The notes: a model not told the origin generated them from the letters alone. A DNA stretch of 64,000 nucleotides from the human T2T-CHM13v2.0 reference genome, Homo sapiens (GCA_009914755.4 CP086569.2:5792001-5856000), one strand, 5' to 3'. Shown: positions 22,301 to 46,700, numbered from the stretch's first letter. Numbers and translations: made by a program.

Positions 22301-25300
22301 TAAAAATGCAGAATAAATAATTGTTAGATATAGTTATGACAACTGTCAGTATGAAGGATTAAAAAAGGAGCACATCAGGAATTAGGATGTCAAATAACAT
22401 TAATGATGTAGCTTAAATAGAAAATCCTGTTTTTAAGACATTACTCTGTAAGAAGCACCAAGATGGCTGAGTAGAAGCAGATGGTGTGTGCTGTTCTCAT
22501 GGGGAAAAGACAGAGTGGTGAGTAAACACTACCTCTTCAAGTGATAATCCAGGAAGCCTCATTGGGATTCATAAAAAAAGCAATGGTGCCACATGAACAC
22601 CAGTAAAAACTGAGGCAGGACAGCTGCCTACCTGGGATTGGTGCAGAGCCAGGGGAGGCTCCCTACCATGAGAAAAGGGTGAGTGAGGGAGAACCCTTGG
22701 GGACTCAAATTTATGCCACAAACCTTTGAGGTTATGGGCACTGAAGATCCCCATTGGCACCCCCAGGCTTATAGTCCAACACAGAGAGCTTCCTGGTGTC
22801 TCGGCAGAGCCACAGCTCAAGCTCATGTTCAGCCCCATTAGTGTGGTTTCCTTGTGCCAGCTTTCATAGCCCTGCCAACAAGGGAGGCCAGGCTCTCTCA
22901 CACATCCCTAAGATAGGGGCCATATTCATGATGGTGAGGAGCAGAGAGACCACAAACCCCACCTCTGCTGTATCTCATCAGGCAAGGTCCATTGGCTGGG
23001 GTCCACAGAACAACCACCCGACCCCTGTCTGAGCACTCCAGCTGGTTGTGGCCCTGCATTTCTCTGAAATACAGCTACCGGAAGTAACTTACAGGTCTGC
23101 TGCAATTGCTATGGTTGTGGACCCCACCCCTGCTGCTCTCAGGCTGGGGAGGCAGCAAAGAATCCAAGAAATATAGTGGGCCTCCAGCAAGCCACAGCTG
23201 CCCTATGAAAAGGTATCCAGATTGTTTTCCACATCTGACCCTGCTTCTGCTGCTCCTCACTGGGCAGAGCCTCCTGGCTTTGGCCCACAGTGCAGCCACC
23301 TCACACCTGCTTAATCACATCGGTCCATGGCAGCTCTGTATTTCTCCAGGATGGAGCTCCCAGAGACAACTGACAGACCCTCTGCCATTGCTGCCACCAT
23401 TGCTCCCCCCAGGCTAGGAGGAAACAAAGAGCCTGATTGTTTTCACATGCCTACAGTATGCCACAGCCATTTTATGTAGAAGAGTTTAGATTGCCTTTAA
23501 TGTGAACTGAGCACCCTGTTCTTTGTCAGGCAGTCCTCCACTCCCCACCCTCAGCTTGGGTCTGCAGTACAGCAGCCCCACTCCTGGCTGATCATCACAA
23601 TCAGCAATGGCTCTGCATTTCTCTGGGGTGGAGTTCCCAGAGGCAACTAACAGCCCCTCTTCCACTGCTGCCACTGTATACCCTGCCTTGCTGCCCTAGT
23701 GATGGAAAGGGAACAATTCACCTGATTGCTGTGTTTATATCTCCAGCATGCCATAGCCGCCCTACAGAGGGAAGGCCAGACTGTCTTCCCTGTTAGTCCC
23801 TGCCCCCACTGCTCTTTACAAGGCAGGGCTCCCTAGCATGGGTCATAGCACACCTGCCACATCCCCAGCTGTTTACTAATCAGCCATGGTTTTTCATTTA
23901 GCTGAGGTGGAATACCCAGAGTCAACTGACAGGCCCTCTGCCATTGCTGCTGCCATGGTCCCCACCCCTGCTGCCTCCAAGCTGAGGAGGGAAGAAAAAA
24001 CTTCACCACACTCCAGGGTGGCAGTGCACAGCTTGGGAGTGGTGAACGGAGATCTGTGACCAGCACTCTGAAAGGAGAGGAGTTTACACTCCCAGAGCAC
24101 TGAGAGGGGTAAGTTGCATGGGCTCATGGGCTGTCACAGGTGGGGAGAATGCCTGCCTCCACAAAGCCAGCCCAGAAAATGTGAGGCCTGTTTCCCTCCT
24201 GCCTGCTGCCTCTGCCTGAGGAAGCCCCATGAACCAAAAGAGCTAAGAAAAGAGAAACTGACACAGTGCCAGTGATATGAGGAAGCTCCCCTAAGGTCCA
24301 GATGTATAGCTAATGAGGTCATCTCTCTCTCTGTTGCAACACAGAGCACAGCTACAAACGCCAGGAAACACAAAGAAGCCAGTGGCTTAGTAAGAGCCTA
24401 CCTACTGCCAGTACTCTTAAGAACCATCTACTGCATCTCAGCCCAATGTAAAACACCAAAACTACTAAGCTAATATACCCCCCTATGGAACCAAGGGCAG
24501 TAATTCAGTCACAAAAAAAGAAAGACTCTACACAGAGCATTGGCTTTCTGAAACCATCTACAAACAAAGCTAACTGACTATATTCAACTTATAACCACAA
24601 TTAAAAGAACATCAACCCTTCCAGATGAGAAATAATTAGCACAAGAACCCTGGCAATTCAAAAACCGAAGTGTCTATGTACCTCCAAGGGAGTCCACTAG
24701 TCTCCAACAATGAATCTTAAGTTGGAAATAATAGATATAGAATTCAGAATCTTTATGGCAAGGAAGTGCATTGAGTTGCAAGAGAAAGTTGAAACTCAAT
24801 CCAAGGAATCCAGTAAGATGATCCAAGAGCTGAAATACAATATAGCTATTTTTAGAAATAACCAAACTAAACTTTTAGAGCTGAAAAACTCACTACAAGA
24901 ATTTCATACTTCTATGTAAAGTATTAACAGCAGAATAGACCATGCTGAGCATAGAATTTCAGAACATGAAAAATGGTTCTGTAAATCAACTCAGTCAGAC
25001 AAAAATGAAGAAAAAAAATTGTTAAAAAATGAACAAAACGTCCAATAAATAATGGGGTTATGTAAAGAGACCAAGTGTTTGACTTATTGGCATTCCTAGG
25101 AGAGAGAAGAAGGGGGAAAATAACTTGGAAAATATATTTGAGGATATAGTCCATGAACATTTCTCTACTCTCACTAGAGAGATGGACATTCAAATCCAAG
25201 AAATAGAAAGAATTTCAGCTAGATATTTTACAAGATGACCAACCACTAAGGCACATAGTCATCAGATTCAACAAGCTCAACGCAAAATAAAAAAGGCTTA

Positions 25301-26093
25301 AAGGAAGCTAGAGAGAAGGATAAAGTCATATACACAGCAAACTCATTCAGCTAGCAGCAGACATCTCAGCAGAAACATTATAAACATAAGTGATTGCAGA
25401 CCTATTTTCAGGATCCTTAAAGAAAAGAAATTCCAAGCAAGAATTCATATTCTTCAAAACTAAGATTCATAAGTAAAGGAGGAATAAATTCTTCTCAGAC
25501 AGACAAATACTAAGGGAATTTATTCCAACCAGACCAGCCTTACAAGAGGTTCTTGAGAGAGTGCTACACATGGAACCAAAGGGGGAATAAAAGGCTAGCA
25601 CAAAAACATACCTAAGTACAAAGATCACAGACACTATAAAATAATCACACAAACAAGTCTACAGAATAACCAGCTTACAACATGATGACAGAATCAAAAT
25701 CTTACATATCAATACTAACCCTGAATGTAAATGGGCTAAATGCCCCCACATAAAAGACATGGAGTAGCAAACTGGAAAAAAAGATAAGACCTAACTATCT
25801 ACAGTCTACAAGAGACCCAGCTCACATGCAGTGAAACACACAAGCTCAAAGTAAAGAGACGAAGAAAGATCTATCATGCAAGTGGAAAACAACAACAAAA
25901 AGTAGGAGTTGATATTCTTGAAGAAGGGCATACATAATAATACAGAGTACCAACAAGAAAACTTAACTATTCTAAATATGTAGGCACCTAAATAAATATG
26001 CACTCACATTTATAAAACAAGTTCTTCTTGGCCTATGAGAAGACTTAGAAAACCACACAATAATAGTGGGAGATTTCAAAACCCCAAAGAGAA

Positions 26094-26447
26094 TTGAGGG
26101 AGAAAACTGTCAAAGAAACATTAGAGTTAAACAGTACACTTGACCAAATGGACATGATACACGTCTACAGAACACTACATCAAACAACCACAGAGTATAC
26201 ATTATTTTCACCTGCACACGGAACAAATTCTAAGACAACCACATGCTTGATCATAAAGCATGTCTCAACAAATTCGAAACAGTTGAAATCATACCAGTTA
26301 ACAACCTCAGGCAACAATGCAATAAAAATACAAATGAATATCAAGAAAATCTCTCAAAACCACACAAATAATTTGGAAATTGAACAACTTGCTCCTAAAT
26401 TACTCCTGGGTGGACATCAAATTTACGTCAGAAATAAAAATAATTGA
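26094..26447 (+). pseudogene. L1 ORF2 endonuclease-region fragment of the old plus-strand L1
   Basis: Peptide ...[46 protein letters not shown] matches L1 ORF2 ([33 protein letters not shown]). Confidence 0.6.
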
Positions 26448-27473
26448 AATTAATGAAAATAGGGACACAACTTACCAAAAATGGAAACATTTTTCTTGAA
26501 AAGTTGAACAAGGCAAGGATGTCCACTCTCACTCCTCCTATTTAACATAGTACTGAAAGCCCCAGCTTTCTCTTAGGCAAGAGAAAGAAATAAAAAAAAT
26601 CTAAATAGGAAAAGAATAAGTCAAGCTATTTTTCCTGACATTATGATTCCATACCTAGAAAATACTAAAGACTCCACAGAAAGGCAACCAAATCTGGAAA
26701 ATAATTTTGATAATGTTTCAGAGTACAAAAAAGTCACTGTACAAAAATCAGTGGCATTTTTATAGACCAAAATGTCTAGGGTGTGACCCAAATCAAGAAC
26801 ACAATCCCACTTACAATAGCTACAAAGAAAATGAAATATCTAGGTATACAACTAACCAAGAAAGTGAAAGATCTCTCCCAGGAGAACTAAAAAACGTTGC
26901 TGAAAGAAATCAGAGACATCACAAATAAATTAAAAAAAAATTCTGTGCTCATGGATTGGAAGAATCAATATAATAAAAATGGCCATACTGCCCAAAGCAA
27001 TTTACAAATTCACTGCTAGTCCTATCAAACTACCAATGTCATTCTTCACAGAATTAGAAAAAAAACTATTCTAAACATTATATGGAACTTAAAAAAGAAC
27101 CCAAGTAGCCTAAGCAAAAAGAACACAGCCAGACACATCATACAAACTGAGTTCAAACTATATTATAAGGCTACAGTAAAACAAAACACCATGATATTTG
27201 TCAGGCCTCTGAGCCTAAGCTAAGCCATCATAACTCCTGTGACCTGCACTTACACATCCAGATGGCCGGTTCCTGCCTTAACTGATGACATTCCACCACA
27301 AAAGAAGTGAAAATGTCCTGTTCCTGTCTTAACTGATGACATTGTCTTGTGAAATTCCTTCTCCTGGCTCATTCTGGCTCAAAAGCTCCACTACTGAGCA
27401 CCTTGTGACCCCCACTCTGCCTGCCAGAGAACAACCCCGTTTGACTGTAATTTTCCTTTACCTACCCAAATCC

Positions 27474-27480
27474 TATAAAA
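27474..27480 (+). promoter_or_regulatory. TATA box (tataaaa) of the HERV-H 5' LTR. A matching tataaa lies in the 3' LTR at 32745-32750.
   Basis: aaatcctataaaacaacccc in the U3 region. This is the canonical position of the LTR7 TATA. Activity cannot be judged from sequence. Confidence 0.4.
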
Positions 27481-27610
27481 CAACCCCACCCCTATCTTCC
27501 TTCGCTGACTCTCTTTTCGGACTCAGCCCACCTGCACCCAGGTGAAATAGACAGCTTTATTGGTCACACAAAGCCTGTTTGGTGGTCTCTTCACATGGAC
27601 GTGCATGAAA

Positions 27611-27631
27611 TTTAGTGCTATGACTCAGATC
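27611..27631 (+). other. HERV-H primer-binding site (tRNA-His type), CpG-decayed
   Basis: tttagtgctatgactcagatc immediately 3' of the LTR end. Compare TTGGTGCCGTGACTCGGATC. Confidence 0.6.
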
Positions 27632-30090
27632 AGAGGACCTCCCTTGGGAGATCAATCCCCTGTCCTCCTGTTCTTTGCTCCATGAAAAACATCCACCTAC
27701 GACCTCAGGTCCTCAGACCCACCAGCCCAAGGAACATCTCACCAATTTTAAATCAGGTAAGCGGCCTCTTTTTACTCTCTTCTCCAGCCCCCTTCACTAT
27801 CCCTCAACCTCGTTCTCCTTTCAATCTTGGTGCCACACTTCAATCTCTCCATTCTCTTAATTTCAATTCCTTTCATTTTCTGGTAGAGACAAAGGAGACA
27901 TGTTTTATCTGTGGACCCAAAACTCCAGTGCCGGTCACAGACTAGGGAAGGCAGCCTTCCCTTGGTGTTTACTAATTGCAGGGATGCCTCTCTGATTATT
28001 CACCCAGGTTTCAGAGGTGTCAGACCATGCAGGGACGCCTGCCTTGATCCTTCAACCTTAGCGACAAGTCCCACTTTTCTGGGGAAGGGGCAAGTACCCC
28101 AACCCCTTCTCTCTGTGTCTCTACCCCTTCTCCACCTTTCTGGGGGGCAAGAGACCCCCAACCCCTTCTCCTTCACCCTTAGTGGCAAGTCCCGCTTTTC
28201 TAGGGGAGGGGCAAGTACCCCAACCCCTTATATCTCTGCACCCCGATCCCTTATTTCCACACCCCAACCTCTTATATCTCTGTGCCCCAATCCCTTATTT
28301 CCATGCCCTGACATCGTATCTCTGTGTCCCAACCCCTTTCCCACTTTTCTGGAGGGTAAGAACTCCCAAACCCCTTCCCTCTGTGTCTCTACTCTCTCTT
28401 TTCTCTGGGCTTGCCTCCTTCACTATTTGCAACCTTCCACCCTCCATTCCTCCTTCTTCTCCCTTAGCCTGTGTTCTTAAGAACTTAAAACCTCTTCAAC
28501 TCTCACCTGATCTAAAATCTAAGCATGTTATTGTCTTCTGCAATGCCACTTGACCCCAATACAAACTTGACAGTAGTTCCAAATAGCCAGAAAATGGCAC
28601 TTTCAATTTTTCCACCCTGCAAGTTCTAAATAATTATTGTCATAAAATAGGCAAATGGTCTGAGGTGCCTGATGTCCAGGAATTATTTTACACATCGGTC
28701 CCTTCCTAGTTTCTGTGCCCAGTGCAACTCATCCCAAAACTTCCTTCTTTCCCTCCCACCTGTCCCCTCCATCCCAACCCCCAGCATCGCTGAGTCTTTC
28801 TAATCTCCCTTTTCTACAGACCCATCTGACCTCTCCCCTCCTCCCCAGACTGCTCCTCACCAGGCCGAGCTAGGTCCCAATTCTTCCTCAGCCTCCGCTC
28901 CTCCACCCAATAATCCTTTTATCACCTCCCCTCCTCACACCTGGTCCAGCTTACAGTTTCATTCTGTGACTAGCCATCCCCCACCTGCCCAGCAATTTAC
29001 TCTTAAAAAGGTGGCTGGAGCTAAAGCCATAGTCAAGGTTAATGCTCCCTTTTCTTTATTCCAAATCAGATAGCATTTAGGCTCTTTTTCATCAAATATA
29101 AAAATCCAGCCCAGTTCATGACTCATTTGGCAGCAACGCTGAGATACTTTATAGCCCTAGACCCTAAAAGGTCAAAAGGCCATCTTATTCTCAAAATACA
29201 TTTTATTACCCAATCTGCTCCTGACATTAAATAAAACTCAAAAAATTAAATTCTGGCCCTCAAACCCCACAACAGGATTTAATTAACCTCGCCTTCAAGG
29301 TGTACAATAATAGAAAAAAGTTGCAATTCCTTGCTTCCACTGTGAGACAAACCCCAGCCACATCTCCAGCAAACAAGAACTTCCAAACGCCTGAATCGCA
29401 GCAGCCAGGCATTCCTCCAGAACCTCCTCCCTGAGGAGCTTGCTACAAGTGCCAGAAATCTGGCCACCAGGCCAAGGAATGCCTGCAGCCCAGGATTCCT
29501 CCTAAGCCACATCCCATCTGTGCAGGACCCCACTGGAAATCATACTGTCCAACTCACCTGGCAGCCACTCCCAGAGCCCCTGGAACTCTGGCCCAAGGCT
29601 CTCTGACTCCTTCCCAGATCTTCTTGGCTTAACGGCTGAAGACTGACACTGCCTGATCACCTCGGAAGCCCCCTAGACCGTCACAGATGCTGAGCTTTGG
29701 ATAACTGTCACAGTGGAAGGTAAGTCTGTCCCCTTCTTAATCATTACGGAGGCTACCCACTCCACATTACCTTCTTTTCAAGGGCCTGTTTCCCTTGCCT
29801 CCCTAACTGTTGTGGGTATTGACAGCCAGGCTTCTAAACCTCTTAAAACTCCCCCACTCTTGGTGCCAACCTAGACAACACTCATTTAAGCACTCCTTTT
29901 AGTTATCCCCACCTGCCCAGTTCCCTTATTAGGCTGAGACACTTTAACTAAATTATCTGCTTCCTTGACTATTCCTGGATTATAGCTACATCTCATTGCT
30001 GCCCTTCTTCCCAATCCAAAGCCTCCTTTGCATCCTCCTCTTGTATTCCCCCACCTTAACCCACAAGTATAAGATACCTCTACTCCCTCC

Positions 30091-30483
30091 TTGGTGACTG
30101 ATCATGCACCCCTTACCATCTCATTAAAATCTAATCACCCTTACCCCACTGCACACCAATATCCCATCCCACAGCACGCTTTAAAAGGATTAAAACCTGT
30201 TATCATTCGCCTGCTACAGCATGGGCTTCTAAAACCTATAAACTCTCCTTACAATTCCCCCATTTTACCTGTCCAAAAACTGGACAAGTCTTACAGATTC
30301 GTTCAGGATCTGCGCCTTATCAACCAAATTGTTTTGCCTATCCACACTGTGGTGCCCAACCCATACACTCTTTTGTCCTCATTACCTTCCTCCACAACTC
30401 ACTATTCTGTTCTTGATCTTAAAGATGGTTTTTTCACTATTCGCCTGCACCCCTTGTCCCAGCCTCTCTTTGCTTTCACTTAG
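30091..30483 (+). pseudogene. HERV-H pol fragment, reverse-transcriptase N-terminal region, gammaretrovirus-like
   Basis: Peptide ..LKGLKPVIIRLLQHGLLKPINSPYNSPILPVQKLDKSYRFVQDLRLINQIVLPIHTVVPNPYTLLSSLP..YSVLDLKDGFFTIRLHPLSQPLFAFT matches the MLV-type RT motif pattern (GI.P.I..LL..GIL.PC.SPWNTPLLPVKK...YRPVQDLR.VN......HPTVPNPYNLLS.LPP....YTVLDLKDAFFCL.LHP.SQPLFAF). Confidence 0.75.
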
Positions 30484-31439
30484 ACTGACCCTGACACCCA
30501 TTAGGCTCAGCAAATTACCTGGGCTGTACTGCCGCAAGGCTTCACAGACAGCCCCCATTACTTCAGTCAAGCCCAAATTTCATCCTCATCTGTTACCTAT
30601 CTTGGCATAATTCTCATAAAAACACACGTGCTTTCCCTGCTGATCATGTCCGATTAATCTCCCAAACCTCAATCCCTTACAAAACAACATTCCTTTCCTT
30701 CCTAGCCATGATTAGTGTGGTCAGAATTCTTACACAAGAGCCAGGACCGCACCCTGTAGCCTTTCTGTCCAAACAATTTGACCTTACTGTTTTAGCCTAG
30801 CCATCATGTCTCCGTGCAGTGGCTGCTGCCACCCTAATACTTCTAGAGGCCCTCAAAATCAGAAACTATGCTCAACTTACTCTCTACATTTCTCATAACT
30901 TCCAAAATTGATTTTCTTCCTCATACCTGATGCATATACTTTCTGCTCCCTGGCTCCTTCAGCTGTACTCACTCTTTGTTAAGTCCCACAGTTACCATTG
31001 TTCCTGGCCCAGACTTCATTCCGGCCTCCCACATTATTCCTGATACCACACCTGACCCACATGACTGTATCTCTCTGATCCACCTGACATTCACCCCATT
31101 TCCCCATATTTCCTTCTTTCCTGTTCCTCACCCTGATCACGCTTGATTTATTGATGGCAGTTCCACCAGGCCTAATCACCACACACCAGCAAAGGCAGGC
31201 TATGCTATAGTACAAGCAACTAGCCCGCCTCTTAGAACCTCTCATTTTCTTTCCATTGTGGAAATCTATCCTCAAGGAAATAACTTCTCAGTGTTCCATC
31301 TGCTACTCTACTACTCCTCAGGGATTATTCAGGCCCCCTCCCTTCCCTACACATCAAGCTCGAGGATTTGCCCCCACCCAGGACTGGCAAATTAGCTTTA
31401 CTCAACATGACCCAAGTCACAAAAACTAAAATACCTCTT

Positions 31440-31900
31440 AGTCTAAGTAGACACTTTCACTAGATAGGTAGAGGCCTTTCCTACAGGGCCTCAGAAGGCC
31501 ACCGCAGTCATATCTTCCCTCCTGTCAGACATAATTCCTCAGTTTAGCCTTCCCACCTCTATACAGTCTGATAACAGACCAGCCTTTATTAGTCAAATAA
31601 GACAAGCATTTTTTCAGGCTCTTAGTATTCAGTGAAACCTTTATATCCCTTACAGTCCTCAGTCTTCAGGAAAAGTAGAACAGACTAATGGTCTTTTAAA
31701 AACACACCTCACCAAGCTCAGCCACCAACTTAAAAAGGACTGGACAATACTTTTACCACTTTCCCTTCTCAGAATTCAGGCCTGTCCTCAGAATGCTACA
31801 GGGTATAGCCCATTTGAGCTCCTGTATAGACACTCCTTTTTATTAGGCCCCAGTCTCATTCCAGACACCAGACCAACCTGGACCGTGCCCCCAAAAAACT
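31440..31900 (+). pseudogene. HERV-H pol fragment, integrase catalytic-core region, disrupted by stops
   Basis: Translation ..QSDNRPAFISQIRQAFFQALSIQ*NLYIPYSPQSSGKVEQTNGLLKTHLTKL..DWTILLPLSLLRIQACPQNATGYSPFELLY.. parallels the MLV IN core (GTDNGPAF.S......LGI...LH.AYRPQSSGQVER.N...K..L.KL....DW..LLPLAL.R.R..P...GLTPYE.LYG). Confidence 0.55.
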
Positions 31901-32814
31901 TGTCATCCCTACTATCTTCTGTCTAGTCATACTCCTATTCACTGTTCTCACCTACTCATACATGCCCTACTCTTGTTTACACTGCCGGTTTACACTGTTT
32001 CTCCAAGCCATCACAGCTGATATCTCCTGGTGCTATCCCCCAAACTGCCACTCTTAACTCTTGAAGTAAATAAATAATCTTTGCTGACAGGACTATGGTG
32101 AATTTCCTCAGGCACTCTAATTAGATGTCCTAGGTCCTCCCAATTCTTAGACCTTTAATACCTGTTTTTCTCCTTCTCTTATTCCGTTTAGTTTTTCAAT
32201 TCATACAAAACCATATCCAGGCCATCACCAATAATTCTAAATGACAAATGTTTCTTCTAACAGTCCCACAATATCACCCCTTACCACAAAATCTTCCTTC
32301 AGCTTAATCTCTCCCACTCTAGGTTCCCACGCCACCCCTAATGCTGCTCGAAGCAGCCCTGAGAAACATTGCCCATTATCTCTCCATACCACCCCCAAAA
32401 ATTTTCACCATCCCAACACTTTACCACTATTTCATTTTGTTTTTCTTATTAATATAAGAAGACAGGAATGTCAGGCCTCTGAGCCCAAGCTAAGCCATCA
32501 TATCCCTTGTGACCTACAAGTACACATCCAGATGGCTGGTTCCTGCCTTAACTGATGACATTCCACCACAAAAGAAGTGAAAATGGCCTGTTCCTGCCTT
32601 AACTGATGACATTGTCTTGTGAAATTCCTTCTCCTGGCTCATCCTGGCTCAAAAGCTCCCCTACTGAGCACCTTGTGACCCCCACTCTGCCTGCCAGAGA
32701 ACAACCCCCCTTTGACTGTAATTTTCCTTTACCTACTCAAATCCTATAAAACTGCCCCACTCCCATCTCCCTTCACTGACCCTTTTCAGACTCAGCCCAC
32801 CTGCATCCAGGTGA

Positions 32815-32820
32815 AATAAA
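32815..32820 (+). promoter_or_regulatory. AATAAA polyadenylation signal in the 3' LTR R region. The homologous site in the 5' LTR is mutated to AATAGA.
   Basis: gtgaaataaacagctttattgctcac in the 3' LTR versus gtgaaatagacagctttattggtcac in the 5' LTR. Confidence 0.45.
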
Positions 32821-34743
32821 CAGCTTTATTGCTCACACAAAGCCTATTTGGTGGTCTCTTCACACGGAAGCGAATGAAAATATTAATATAAAAACAGACA
32901 CATAGATTAATGGAAAAGAGTAGTAAACTCAGAAGTAAAACCACACACTTACAATTATCTGATCATCAACAAGGCCGACAAAACCAAGCAATGGGAAAAG
33001 CACTACCTATTCAATATATACTGCTGGGATAACTGGCTAGTTATAAATGCAGAAGAATGAAACTGTACTCTTGCCTTTCATCATCTACAAAAATTACTCC
33101 AAGATGAATTAATTAAATTTAAGATATCAGTCTATAAAAAACTTAGAAGAAAACCTAGGAAATATCCTCCTCAACACGGGCCTTGGCAAATAATTTTTGG
33201 CTGAGTTCTCAAAAGCAATTGCAAATATATGCCAAAAATTGGCAACTGGTACATAATTAAAATCTTCCACACAGCTAAAGAAACTATTAATAGAGTAAAC
33301 AGACTACCTACACAATGGGAGAAAATATTTGCAAACTACACATCTGAAAAGGTCTAATATCCAGAAACTACAAGGAACTTAAGCAATTCAATAGTTTAAA
33401 AAACAAATAAAAACATTAAAAAATGGGCATAATATAATCATAGACAAAAGACATACATGCAGTCAAAAATTACATATAAAAATACTAATCATTAGAGAAA
33501 TGTAAATCAAAACCACAATGAGATACCATCTTACACTGGTCAGAATGCCTGTTCTTTTTTTTTTTTTCCTATGTTTCTTTCATTTTTTTTTTTATTATTA
33601 TACTTTAAGTTTTAGGGTACATGTGCACAATGTGCAGGTTAGTTACATATGTATACATGTGCCATGCTGGTGTGCTGCACCCATTAACTCAACATTTAGC
33701 ATTAGGTATATCTCCTAATGCTATCCCTTGCCCCTTCCCCAACCCACAACAGTCCCCAGAGTGTGATGTTCCCCTTCCTGTGTCCATGTGTTCTCATTGT
33801 TCAATTCCCATCTATGAGTGAGAACATGTGGTGTTTGGTTTTTTGTCCTTGCGATAGTTTACTGAGAATGATGATTTCCAATTTCATCCATGTCCCTACA
33901 AAGGACATGAACTCATCATTCTTTATGGCTGCATAGTATTCCATGGTGTATACGTGCCACATTTTCTTAATCCAGTCTATCATTGTTGGACATTTGGGTT
34001 GGTTCCAAGTCTTTGCTATTGTGAATAGTGCCGCAATAAACATACCTGTGCATGTGTCTTTATAGCAGCATGATTTATAATCCTTTGGGTATATACCCAG
34101 TAATGGGATGGCTGGGTCAAATGGTATTTCTAGTTCTAGATCCCTGAGGAATCTAGGGATTTCTAACATAACACACTGACTTCCACAATGGTTGAACTAG
34201 TTTACAGTCCCACCAACAGTGTAAAAGTGTTCCTATTTCTCCACATCCTCTCCAGCACCTGTTGTTTCCTGACTTTTTAATGATTGCCATTCTAACTGGT
34301 GTGAGATGGTGTCTCATTGTGGTTTTGATTTGCAATTCTCTGATGGCCAGTGATGATGAGCATTTTTTTCATGTGTCTTTTGGCTGCACAAATGTCTTCT
34401 TTTGAGAAGTGTCTGTTTATATCCTTTGCCCACTTTTTGATGGGGTTGTTTGTTTTTTTCCTGTAAATTTGTTTGAGTTCGTTGTAGATTCTGGATATTA
34501 GCCCTTTGTCAGATGAGTAGGTTGTGAAAATTTTCTCCCATTTTGTAGGTTGCCTGTTCACTCTGATGGTAGTTTCTTTTGCTGTACAGAAGCTCTTTAG
34601 TTTAATGAGATCCCATTTGTCAATTTTGACTTTTGTTGCCATTGCTTTTGGTGTTTTAGACATGAAGTTCTTGCCCATGACTATGTCCTGAATGGTAATG
34701 CCTAGGTTTTCTTCTAGGGTTTTTATGATTTTAGGTCTAACAT

Positions 34744-36055: not shown

Positions 36056-38838
<2,783 letters not shown>

Positions 38839-43158: not shown

Positions 43159-46700
<3,542 letters not shown>

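What the first reader, a model, noticed from the sequence alone, without database searches (positions are those of the whole stretch)
27199..32879. Structurally complete HERV-H/LTR7 provirus nested inside an old L1
Both LTRs (about 411 bp, LTR7-like) are present and differ by roughly 5-8 percent by eye. The PBS is a CpG-decayed His-tRNA type. The leader keeps the ttttaaatcag|gtaagc splice-donor context. A polypurine tract and a 5-bp TSD (ATATT) are present. The internal region has the common 4.9-kb deleted layout: gag leader with proline/serine-rich tandem repeats at about 28050-28400, RT and IN fragments, and no env. The 5' LTR keeps its TATA (27474-27480). The 3' LTR keeps AATAAA (32815-32820). 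HERV-H/LTR7 loci of this structure are established to act as promoters of lncRNAs in primate pluripotent cells (established knowledge). Whether this copy is transcribed cannot be read from sequence. This is the most biologically interesting object in the window.
Basis: partly seen in the sequence, partly recalled or inferred. Interest (0 to 1): 0.55.

Follow-up and report, generated by a model that had tools for sequence, protein, structure and literature searches.

The report
Known silent HERV-H provirus, human Y
This is an ordinary, already catalogued fossil retrovirus (HERV-H with LTR7d2 repeats) sitting inside an old L1 element on the human Y chromosome, and published stem-cell data list this copy as untranscribed, so it is correctly identified but not remarkable.

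Summary
Window 27199-32879 is a 5,681-bp provirus with two LTRs (412 and 411 bp). The LTRs differ at 30 of 410 aligned sites (7.3%) plus two small indels. A 5-bp target-site duplication (ATATT), a decayed tRNA-His primer-binding site, the family's leader splice donor and a polypurine tract are all present. The 4,858-bp interior carries gag (zinc knuckle), protease, the N-terminal half of RT and the integrase core. RNase H is deleted, and only a probable Env membrane-anchor remnant is left.

Removing the provirus and one ATATT restores a continuous L1 ORF2 reading frame, so it is nested in an old L1.

New here:
- Both LTRs match the published LTR7d2 ("7down") consensus at 95%, against about 90% with a missing block for LTR7up, the pluripotency-active subfamily.
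- The 5' LTR is 409/409 identical to hg38 chrY:6139215-6139624 in Carter et al. 2022 (eLife). The chrX:93022959 paralog differs at 10 of 409 sites.
- That paper lists this locus as 7d2, with no RNA, GRO-seq or chimeric-transcript call in H1 cells, and positive for KAP1, H3K9me3 and H3K4me3.

Verdict: the annotation is correct, the element is already known, and it is probably silent. Interest is low.

The parts
27194..27198 (+). 5' copy of the target-site duplication, ATATT
   Evidence: Direct reading. The same 5-mer follows the 3' LTR.
27199..27610 (+). 5' LTR, 412 bp, subfamily LTR7d2
   Evidence: 95.1% identity to the LTR7d2 consensus with 2 gap events. Positions 27200-27608 are 409/409 identical to hg38 chrY:6139215-6139624 in Carter 2022 Supplementary file 6.
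27474..27480 (+). TATAAAA box in U3 of the 5' LTR
   Evidence: It is conserved in all LTR7 consensus sequences except 7b.
27546..27551 (+). Poly(A) signal position in the 5' LTR, mutated to AATAGA
   Evidence: The X paralog carries the same AATAGA.
27613..27630 (+). Primer-binding site TAGTGCTATGACTCAGAT, a decayed tRNA-His type
   Evidence: 14 of 18 positions match the family consensus TGGTGCCGTGACTCGGAT from 62 related loci. Complementarity of that consensus to the tRNA-His 3' end is established knowledge, not tested here.
27754..27762 (+). Leader 5' splice donor CAG|GTAAGC, with GT at 27757-27758
   Evidence: GTAAG is kept at this position in 54 of 57 related HERV-H copies.
28048..28377 (+). 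C-rich repeats in the leader / pre-gag region
   Evidence: Direct repeats D4-D6. TRF finds a 44-bp unit in 2.8 copies at 28217-28338.
29100..29237 (+). gag capsid (p30) remnant, weak
   Evidence: Pfam Gag_p30 E=0.27, below the family cut-off.
29438..29482 (+). gag nucleocapsid CCHC zinc knuckle
   Evidence: Pfam zf-CCHC E=8.9e-5, 22.8 bits against a cut-off of 20.8.
29701..29967 (+). Retroviral aspartyl protease remnant
   Evidence: Pfam RVP E=2.7e-4, 21.6 bits against a cut-off of 20.7.
30274..30570 (+). Reverse transcriptase, N-terminal part only (profile positions 2-132 of 205)
   Evidence: Pfam RVT_1 E=3.2e-12.
31211..31212 (+). Breakpoint of a ~555-bp deletion that removes RNase H and the integrase zinc-binding region
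   Evidence: Seven related contigs break here and carry about 555 extra bp, while 8 are collinear with the window. The extra segment in L045 is Pfam RNase_H (E=1.7e-22) plus a weak Integrase_H2C2 match; the window translation lacks both.
31417..31659 (+). Integrase catalytic core remnant
   Evidence: Pfam rve E=4.1e-9 and 4.4e-10.
32122..32229 (+). Probable Env TM membrane anchor and start of the cytoplasmic tail; the rest of env is absent
   Evidence: Weak phmmer hit to syncytin-2 residues 479-519 (E=0.53). No TLV_coat hit in Pfam.
32456..32468 (+). Polypurine tract AAGAAGACAGGAA abutting the 3' LTR
32469..32879 (+). 3' LTR, 411 bp, LTR7d2, with TATAAAA at 32745-32751 and AATAAA at 32815-32820
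   Evidence: 95.3% identity to the LTR7d2 consensus. Alignment to the 5' LTR; motifs.
32880..32884 (+). 3' copy of the target-site duplication, ATATT
24737..27198 (+). Host L1, 5' side: decayed ORF1-like sequence from about 24737 and ORF2 from 25685
   Evidence: Translation. phmmer to human L1 ORF2p 8sxt gives E=9.6e-35, with the endonuclease and RT-to-C-terminal regions aligned.
32885..33545 (+). Host L1, 3' side: ORF2 continues in the same frame until a minus-strand L1 interrupts it at about 33553
   Evidence: The ORF2p alignment runs uninterrupted across the reconstructed empty site, [21 protein letters not shown]. End point.

Best explanation
Window 27199-32879 is a fossil HERV-H provirus of the RTVL-H2-like deleted form, flanked by LTR7d2 ('7down') LTRs. 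It is the catalogued locus hg38 chrY:6,139,215-6,144,893.

Shown: a retroviral integration into the ORF2 of an older plus-strand L1 created a 5-bp ATATT duplication. The element had lost RNase H, part of RT and almost all of env. Both LTRs and the interior have since decayed: 7.3% LTR-LTR divergence, 56-65 stops per frame, and a PBS and CpGs eroded by deamination.

Inferred: because it could not make its own proteins, the element was probably copied in trans by intact relatives. The integration took place on the ancestral X chromosome in a hominoid ancestor; published orthology data place the main 7d1/7d2 expansion at about 14-20 million years ago. The copy reached the Y with the human-specific Xq21.3-to-Yp11.2 transposition. 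This explains the near-identical paralog at chrX:93,022,959-93,028,634.

Functionally it is most likely a silenced relic. It lacks the second SOX2/3-motif block that LTR7up needs for promoter activity in pluripotent cells. In H1 ESC data it is called KAP1-bound and H3K9me3-marked, with no RNA, GRO-seq or chimeric transcript.
For: - LTR pair, TSD, PBS, PPT and splice donor.
- Retroviral domains in the order zf-CCHC, RVP, RVT_1, rve.
- RNase H deletion shown by comparison with related copy L045.
- Interior is 91-95% identical and collinear over up to 5.2 kb with other HERV-H copies recovered from human-contaminated metagenome contigs.
- Subfamily: 95.1% and 95.3% identity to the LTR7d2 consensus with 2 gap events. 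Against 7up1/7up2 it is 89-90% with 41-44 gapped bases, against 7b 83%, and against 7c and 7y 87%.
- Each LTR has one ACAAAAGAAG copy, as in 7d. 7up and 7u1 have two.
- Exact 409/409 match to the chrY record, with 10 differences from the chrX paralog.
- Published locus calls: subfamily 7d2, RNA 0, top-septile GRO 0, chimeric transcript 0, KAP1 1, no call for NANOG, OCT4, MED1, KLF4, FOXA1, FOXP1, SMAD1, SOX2 or TCF4, H3K9me3 1, H3K27ac 0.
- Published family behaviour: strong ESC promoter activity is restricted to 7up. The 7d consensus drives 7.8-fold less luciferase than 7up1. Only 5 of 550 7d1/7d2 elements are shared with macaque, about 30% with gibbon and about 75% with orangutan.
- Host L1: ORF2p homology is continuous across the empty site.
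- XTR origin: PMC3752934.
Against: - The same table gives H3K4me3 = 1 for this locus. That sits oddly with a purely silent state, although it coincides with H3K9me3 and KAP1.
- Short reads cannot easily separate the X and Y copies, which are about 97.6% identical in the 5' LTR. 'RNA = 0' may therefore partly reflect mappability.
- The 7d consensus is weak but not dead in iPSC reporters: from the paper's ratios, roughly 13-fold above empty vector.
- I assigned the X and Y coordinates to the X-transposed region from memory of its boundaries plus the paralog pair. I did not align the flanks.
- The LTR-divergence age is 17.6 My at 2.2e-9 per site per year and about 31 My at 1.25e-9. It brackets the orthology-based 14-20 My without confirming it. 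At least 6 of the 30 LTR differences arose on the Y lineage after the transposition.
- Copying in trans is inferred from the defective structure and the literature, not shown for this copy.
Confidence: 0.9

Rival explanations
1. The provirus is an active LTR7-driven promoter that produces a spliced lncRNA in pluripotent cells.
For: The TATA box and leader splice donor are intact. An H3K4me3 call is recorded at the locus. About 2% of non-7up HERVH loci are highly expressed in H1 cells.
Against: The subfamily is 7d2, not 7up. The element lacks the second SOX2/3-motif block, and deleting that 8-bp motif abolishes 7up1 activity. The locus calls are RNA 0, GRO-seq 0, chimeric transcript 0, KLF4 0, NANOG 0 and SOX2 0, with KAP1 1 and H3K9me3 1.
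Confidence: 0.04
2. The element is not a promoter in pluripotent cells but has a weak or context-specific regulatory role, for example as an enhancer or as a promoter in another tissue or in cancer.
For: H3K4me3 = 1 at the locus. The 7d consensus has low but non-zero reporter activity. Enhancer-type marks are spread across LTR7 subfamilies. HERVH LTRs are reported to be onco-exapted in tumours (PMC10348765, title and abstract only).
Against: H3K4me1 and H3K27ac are both 0 at this locus. No evidence specific to this copy was found. By my recollection it lies in a gene-poor stretch between PCDH11Y and TSPY2; this was not tested.
Confidence: 0.08
3. The Y copy is an independent HERV-H integration on the Y chromosome, or the window is really the X copy, rather than a passenger of the X-to-Y transposition.
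For: None beyond the 2.4% X-Y difference in the 5' LTR. That exceeds the roughly 1.2% I recall for the region (Poisson P about 0.03 under that rate).
Against: The window matches the chrY record 409/409 and differs from chrX at 10 sites. The X and Y copies share private variants absent from the 7d2 consensus, namely GCTCCACTACTGAG, TTATTGGTCACAC and AATAGA. Both are on the plus strand and have nearly the same length (5,678 and 5,675 bp in the table). Two independent integrations would not share these.
Confidence: 0.01
4. The repeats belong to a different ERV family or are a chance or segmental duplication, not an HERV-H provirus.
For: None found.
Against: See: consensus match, exact catalogue match, retroviral domain order, family-consensus PBS, and collinearity with many HERV-H copies.
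Confidence: 0.005

Closest known systems
LTR7d2-HERVH ('7down') proviruses as defined by Carter et al. 2022 (eLife 11:e76257). This very locus is listed there as chrY:6139215-6144893.
   Same: It is the same object. The 5' LTR is 409/409 identical to the listed record. Both LTRs are 95% identical to, and collinear with, the 7d2 consensus. It is a full-length element, not a solo LTR.
   Different: Nothing of substance. Near the poly(A) signal the LTRs read AAATAAACAG as in 7d2 but then CTTTATTG as in 7d1 and 7u2, so they are slightly mosaic.
X-linked paralog chrX:93,022,959-93,028,634 (hg38), also LTR7d2
   Same: Same subfamily, strand and length. It shares private LTR variants, and both copies are called KAP1-positive with no RNA or GRO-seq signal.
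   Different: There are 10 differences in the 409-bp 5' LTR. Six are derived on the Y and 4 on the X. The X copy is also called ZNF534-positive and lacks the H3K4me3 and H3K9me3 calls.
LTR7up-HERVH loci, the pluripotency-active subfamily behind the HERVH lncRNAs of hESC and iPSC
   Same: Same overall provirus architecture, PBS, leader splice donor and deleted interior.
   Different: 7up carries a duplicated block 2b with an 8-bp AAAAGAAG SOX2/3 motif, is 4-10 My old, and is bound by KLF4, NANOG and SOX2. This copy has one such motif, about 90% identity with a 41-44 base gap, and none of those factor calls.
RTVL-H2-like deleted HERV-H versus RGH2-like intact HERV-H (Jern et al., as summarised in PMC6629862)
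   Same: It has the fragmented pol and near-absent env typical of the 705 RTVL-H2-like elements. The RNase H deletion at 31212 is shared with 8 of 15 long related contigs.
   Different: RGH2-like copies keep a fairly intact pol and often env. Related contig L045 still has RNase H and the integrase zinc finger.

Membership tests
HERV-H (LTR7 / HERVH-int) provirus | LTRs homologous to the LTR7-group consensus | tested here: met
   95.1% and 95.3% identity to LTR7d2, collinear with it. The next best are 7d1 at 95% and 7u1, 7up and 7o at 90-91% with large gaps.
HERV-H (LTR7 / HERVH-int) provirus | Primer-binding site complementary to the 3' end of tRNA-His | tested here: met
   14 of 18 positions match the family PBS consensus TGGTGCCGTGACTCGGAT derived from 62 loci, and 3 of the 4 changes are in CpGs. 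That this consensus pairs with tRNA-His is established knowledge; no human tRNA-His sequence was available to test it directly.
HERV-H (LTR7 / HERVH-int) provirus | Interior homologous to and collinear with HERVH-int | tested here: met
   blastn finds 91-95% identity over 4.2-5.2 kb to contigs L039, L011, L025, L026, L038, L006, L036 and L030, which were retrieved by a leader 25-mer. The locus is listed as non-solo HERVH in Carter 2022.
HERV-H (LTR7 / HERVH-int) provirus | Retroviral gene order gag-pro-pol between the LTRs | tested here: met
   Pfam zf-CCHC, RVP, RVT_1 and rve appear in that order, with a weak Gag_p30 match upstream.
HERV-H (LTR7 / HERVH-int) provirus | Short target-site duplication flanking the LTRs, proving integration | tested here: met
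   ATATT lies on both sides. Removing the provirus and one copy restores the L1 ORF2 frame.
LTR7up (pluripotency-active HERVH subfamily) | Duplicated block 2b carrying the 8-bp AAAAGAAG SOX2/3 motif | tested here: not met
   Each window LTR has one ACAAAAGAAG copy, as in the 7d1 and 7d2 consensus. 7up1, 7up2 and 7u1 have two. Alignment to 7up leaves 41-44 gapped bases.
LTR7up (pluripotency-active HERVH subfamily) | Transcription and KLF4/NANOG/SOX2 occupancy in human ESC | tested here: not met
   From published binary calls for this exact locus: RNA 0, GRO 0, chimeric transcript 0, KLF4 0, NANOG 0, SOX2 0. Caveat: X/Y cross-mapping. I did not analyse raw reads.
LTR7d2 subfamily | Extra CCGGTT.../TTAACTGATGACATTCCACC segment after CAGATGG, absence of block 2b, and GTCTTGTG and CCCTAC variants | tested here: met
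   Two TTAACTGATGACATT copies sit at LTR positions 80 and 131, as in 7d. GTCTTGTGAAAT is present in both LTRs. CCCTAC is present in the 3' LTR, and the 5' LTR reads CCACTAC at that position. The authors' phylogeny labels the locus 7d2.
Human X-transposed region (Xq21.3 to Yp11.2) passenger | Located on Yp11.2 with a highly similar X paralog that shares the same insertion | tested here: inconclusive
   The chrY match is exact, and the chrX paralog shares private variants at 97.6% identity. Region boundaries come from memory and from PMC3752934. The flanks of the X copy were not available.
LINE-1 (host element) | ORF2 encoding endonuclease and reverse transcriptase homologous to L1 ORF2p | tested here: met
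   phmmer to human L1 ORF2p (8sxt) gives E=9.6e-35 over two stretches. The sequence has many stops, so it is an old copy. The L1 subfamily was not determined.

The most novel reading that the evidence does not exclude
Since the human-specific X-to-Y transposition, the Y copy has picked up 6 derived substitutions in its 5' LTR. Unlike its X paralog, it carries an H3K4me3 call in primed pluripotent cells. It could therefore be a male-specific, Y-linked weak promoter or regulatory element that differs functionally from the X copy.
Probability: 0.03. Interest if true: 0.35.

Novelty: already known. Interest (0 to 1): 0.1.

Why it matters
It matters little beyond correct annotation. The case shows that 'HERV-H/LTR7' alone does not predict pluripotency-promoter activity. 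Subfamily decides that: 7up is active and 7d is not, and this copy is on the inactive side. It is also one half of a human-specific X/Y paralog pair. That pair could serve as a small natural experiment on the divergence of a silenced LTR on the X versus the Y. It also means short-read expression or ChIP signal at either copy needs variant-aware mapping.

Tried and rejected
I translated the three frames myself, masked stops as X and rescanned.
- Exact-protein look-ups of two ATG ORFs in the provirus found nothing on record, so they gave no independent locus identification.
- An Rfam scan of the whole window at gathering thresholds found nothing.
- A PDB sequence search with the pre-3'-LTR translation gave only a marginal syncytin-2 hit (E=0.53). 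I report the Env remnant as probable, not shown.
- The first attempt to tabulate the splice donor used too strict an anchor (AATTTTAAAT) and missed most copies, which read AATTTCAAAT. It was redone on GTAAG.
- None of the 62 retrieved contigs is this locus or its X paralog; the best identity is about 95%. They serve only as family comparators.
- I did not use the large protein-database searches or structure prediction. The identity of the element was already settled, and the reading frames are too decayed for those to add anything.
- The bacterial promoter and terminator scan was not used because it does not apply to a human sequence.


Full report
**Observation.** Reading 27000-33100 and the repeat search show two direct repeats 5,270 bp apart. 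Aligned, they are 412 bp (27199-27610) and 411 bp (32469-32879). They have 30 mismatches in 410 shared columns and two small indels. That is p = 7.3% and K2P = 0.0775, with 20 transitions, 10 transversions and 7 CpG-associated differences. A 33-nt LTR7 start motif occurs only at these two positions in the 64-kb window; none is expected by chance. The 5-mer ATATT directly precedes the 5' LTR and directly follows the 3' LTR. The 5' LTR's own poly(A) hexamer has decayed to AATAGA, and the polypurine tract AAGAAGACAGGAA abuts the 3' LTR. The splice-donor context is CAG|GTAAGC with GT at 27757-27758. The leader repeats at 28048-28377 are real.

**Interior.** The 4,858-bp interior has 56-65 stop codons in each forward frame, and its longest ORF is 189 codons. 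A Pfam scan of the three stop-masked frames finds:
- a CCHC zinc knuckle (29438-29482);
- a weak capsid p30 trace (about 29100-29237);
- retroviral protease (29701-29967);
- the N-terminal two-thirds of the RT profile (30274-30570);
- the integrase core (31417-31659).

No Env (TLV_coat) match appears. The translation of 32122-32229 aligns weakly (E = 0.53) to the membrane anchor and start of the cytoplasmic tail of syncytin-2. So 'no env' should read 'almost no env'. The plus strand of the provirus is strongly C-rich, with GC skew of -0.38 to -0.42.

**Related copies.** A 25-mer from the leader retrieved 60 metagenome contigs and 2 'bacterial genome' contigs. All are evidently human contamination. 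They serve as a family sample.
- Their consensus downstream of the LTR is TT-TGGTGCCGTGACTCGGAT. This is the PBS that gives HERV-H its name; pairing with tRNA-His is established knowledge. The window copy differs at 4 of 18 positions, 3 of them in CpGs.
- GTAAG is kept at the leader donor in 54 of 57 copies.
- The window's interior is 91-95% identical and collinear over 4.2-5.2 kb with eight contigs. Seven others break at window position 31212 and carry about 555 extra bp.
- In contig L045 that extra segment encodes RNase H (Pfam E = 1.7e-22) and a weak integrase zinc-binding domain. The window's frame jumps from '...AKAGYAIV' straight into the integrase region.

The copy therefore has a deleted layout that is common in the family. 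This fits the RTVL-H2-like class described in the literature (PMC6629862).

**Host element.** Joining the flanks with the provirus and one ATATT removed gives a continuous, stop-riddled L1 reading frame on the plus strand. It aligns to human L1 ORF2p (PDB 8sxt, E = 9.6e-35), and the alignment passes uninterrupted through the junction at 'FKLYYKATV...'. The L1 carries ORF1-like sequence from about 24737 and ORF2 from 25685. It is itself cut at about 33545-33553 by a younger minus-strand L1. 'Nested in an old L1' is correct. The restored frame is independent proof that the ATATT pair is a true target-site duplication.

**Subfamily.** Supplementary file 7 of Carter et al. 2022 (eLife 11:e76257, PMC8912925) gives consensus sequences for eleven LTR7-group subfamilies. 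Global alignment puts both window LTRs closest to LTR7d2 (95.1% and 95.3%, two gap events), with 7d1 about equal. By comparison:
- 7up1 and 7up2 reach 89-90% with 41-44 gapped bases;
- 7b reaches 83%;
- 7c and 7y reach 87%.

Each window LTR has a single ACAAAAGAAG, as in 7d. 7up and 7u1 have two, and the second lies in block 2b. The paper shows that deleting this 8-bp SOX2/3 motif abolishes 7up1 promoter activity in iPSC. It also shows that the 7d consensus drives 7.8-fold less reporter than 7up1. It reports that 33% of 7up loci, but only 2% of all other loci, are highly expressed in H1 cells, and concludes that strong ESC promoter activity is restricted to 7up.

**Locus identity.** Searching the paper's LTR alignment for private variants of the window's 5' LTR found the record chrY_6139215_6144893 ... 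KAP1_7down_+. Window 27200-27608 is identical to it at all 409 positions. Window base 1 therefore corresponds to hg38 chrY:6,112,017.

The neighbouring record, chrX_93022959_93028634, shares the same private variants but differs at 10 of 409 sites. Polarised on the 7d2 consensus and the 3' LTR, 6 of these changes are Y-derived and 4 are X-derived. This X/Y pair is what the human-specific Xq21.3-to-Yp11.2 transposition would produce (PMC3752934). Placing these coordinates inside that block rests on my recollection of its boundaries, so I mark it as inference.

**Published state of this copy.** Supplementary file 1 of the same paper lists the locus as 7d2, full-length, plus strand. The calls are:
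- RNA 0, top-septile GRO-seq 0, chimeric transcript 0;
- KAP1 1;
- NANOG, OCT4, MED1, KLF4, FOXA1, FOXP1, SMAD1, SOX2 and TCF4 all 0;
- ZNF534 0, ZNF90 0;
- H3K4me1 0, H3K4me3 1, H3K9me3 1, H3K27ac 0.

The lone H3K4me3 call is the only hint of activity. Cross-mapping with the X copy limits how much weight any of these calls can bear.

**Age.** With K2P = 0.0775, T = K/2r gives 17.6 My at 2.2e-9 per site per year and about 31 My at 1.25e-9. Both rates come from general knowledge. The paper's orthology data are more reliable. Five of 550 7d1/7d2 elements are shared with macaque, about 30% with gibbon and about 75% with orangutan. The main 7d amplification is placed at 14-20 My, within an intermediate wave at 9-20 My. 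At least 6 of the 30 LTR differences are recent Y-lineage changes, so the raw LTR divergence overstates the age.

**Mechanism and verdict.** The sequence shows an integration event, through the TSD and the restored host frame. It also shows a defective internal structure and neutral decay. From the defective structure and the literature, I infer that the element was copied in trans. From the X paralog, I infer that it integrated on the X and rode to the Y. From sequence and published data, I infer that it is a KAP1/H3K9me3-silenced relic rather than a pluripotency promoter.

Its suggestion of biological interest is not borne out. The element is already annotated, already classified and already assayed in the literature, and it falls in the inactive subfamily. 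Novelty: already known. Interest: low.

Noticed in passing
L061 585-609 (Campylobacter concisus CABPVN010000073.1, 1,056 bp) and L062 32-56 (Actinomadura cremea BMRF01000220.1, 692 bp): Two short contigs in bacterial 'species representative' genome assemblies carry an exact HERV-H leader 25-mer with the LTR end and PBS upstream of it. They are almost certainly human DNA contamination in those assemblies. Sixty metagenome contigs do the same.
   Followed up: partly
window 27200-27608 versus hg38 chrX:93022959-93023368: The X and Y copies of the 5' LTR differ at 10 of 409 sites (2.4%), 6 Y-derived and 4 X-derived. This is about twice the roughly 1.2% I recall for the X-transposed region (Poisson P about 0.03). 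It could be noise, CpG decay or locally faster change.
   Followed up: partly
window 33553 to about 37350, minus strand: A younger L1 lies in reverse orientation. A poly-T run at 33553-33566 is followed by the reverse complement of an L1 3' end. It interrupts the host L1 only about 670 bp downstream of the provirus. It keeps ORF fragments of 403 and 337 codons and is not intact.
   Followed up: partly
window about 37600-38700, plus strand: Well-preserved L1 5'UTR-end and ORF1 sequence (MEDEMNEMKREGKFREKRIKRNEQSLQEIW...) sits on the plus strand directly after the minus-strand L1. The region from 33.5 to 39 kb is therefore a pile-up of L1 pieces in both orientations.
   Followed up: no
window 31211-31212, and loci L045, L014, L055, L047, L034, L008, L009: HERV-H copies fall into two structural classes at this point, with or without about 555 bp encoding RNase H and the integrase zinc finger. 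The sampled long contigs split about evenly, 8 without and 7 with.
   Followed up: yes
window 28000-32000: The provirus has a strongly negative GC skew (-0.38 to -0.42, C-rich sense strand). This sets it apart from all flanking sequence in the window.
   Followed up: no
whole window: The window has 37.4% G+C, a CpG observed/expected ratio of 0.13 and no Rfam family hit at gathering thresholds. This fits a gene-poor, repeat-dominated stretch of human Yp11.2.
   Followed up: no
window 44413-44991, both strands: Overlapping ORFs of 157-192 codons lie on both strands within the same ~580 bp. This suggests low-complexity or repeat sequence. I did not examine it.
   Followed up: no
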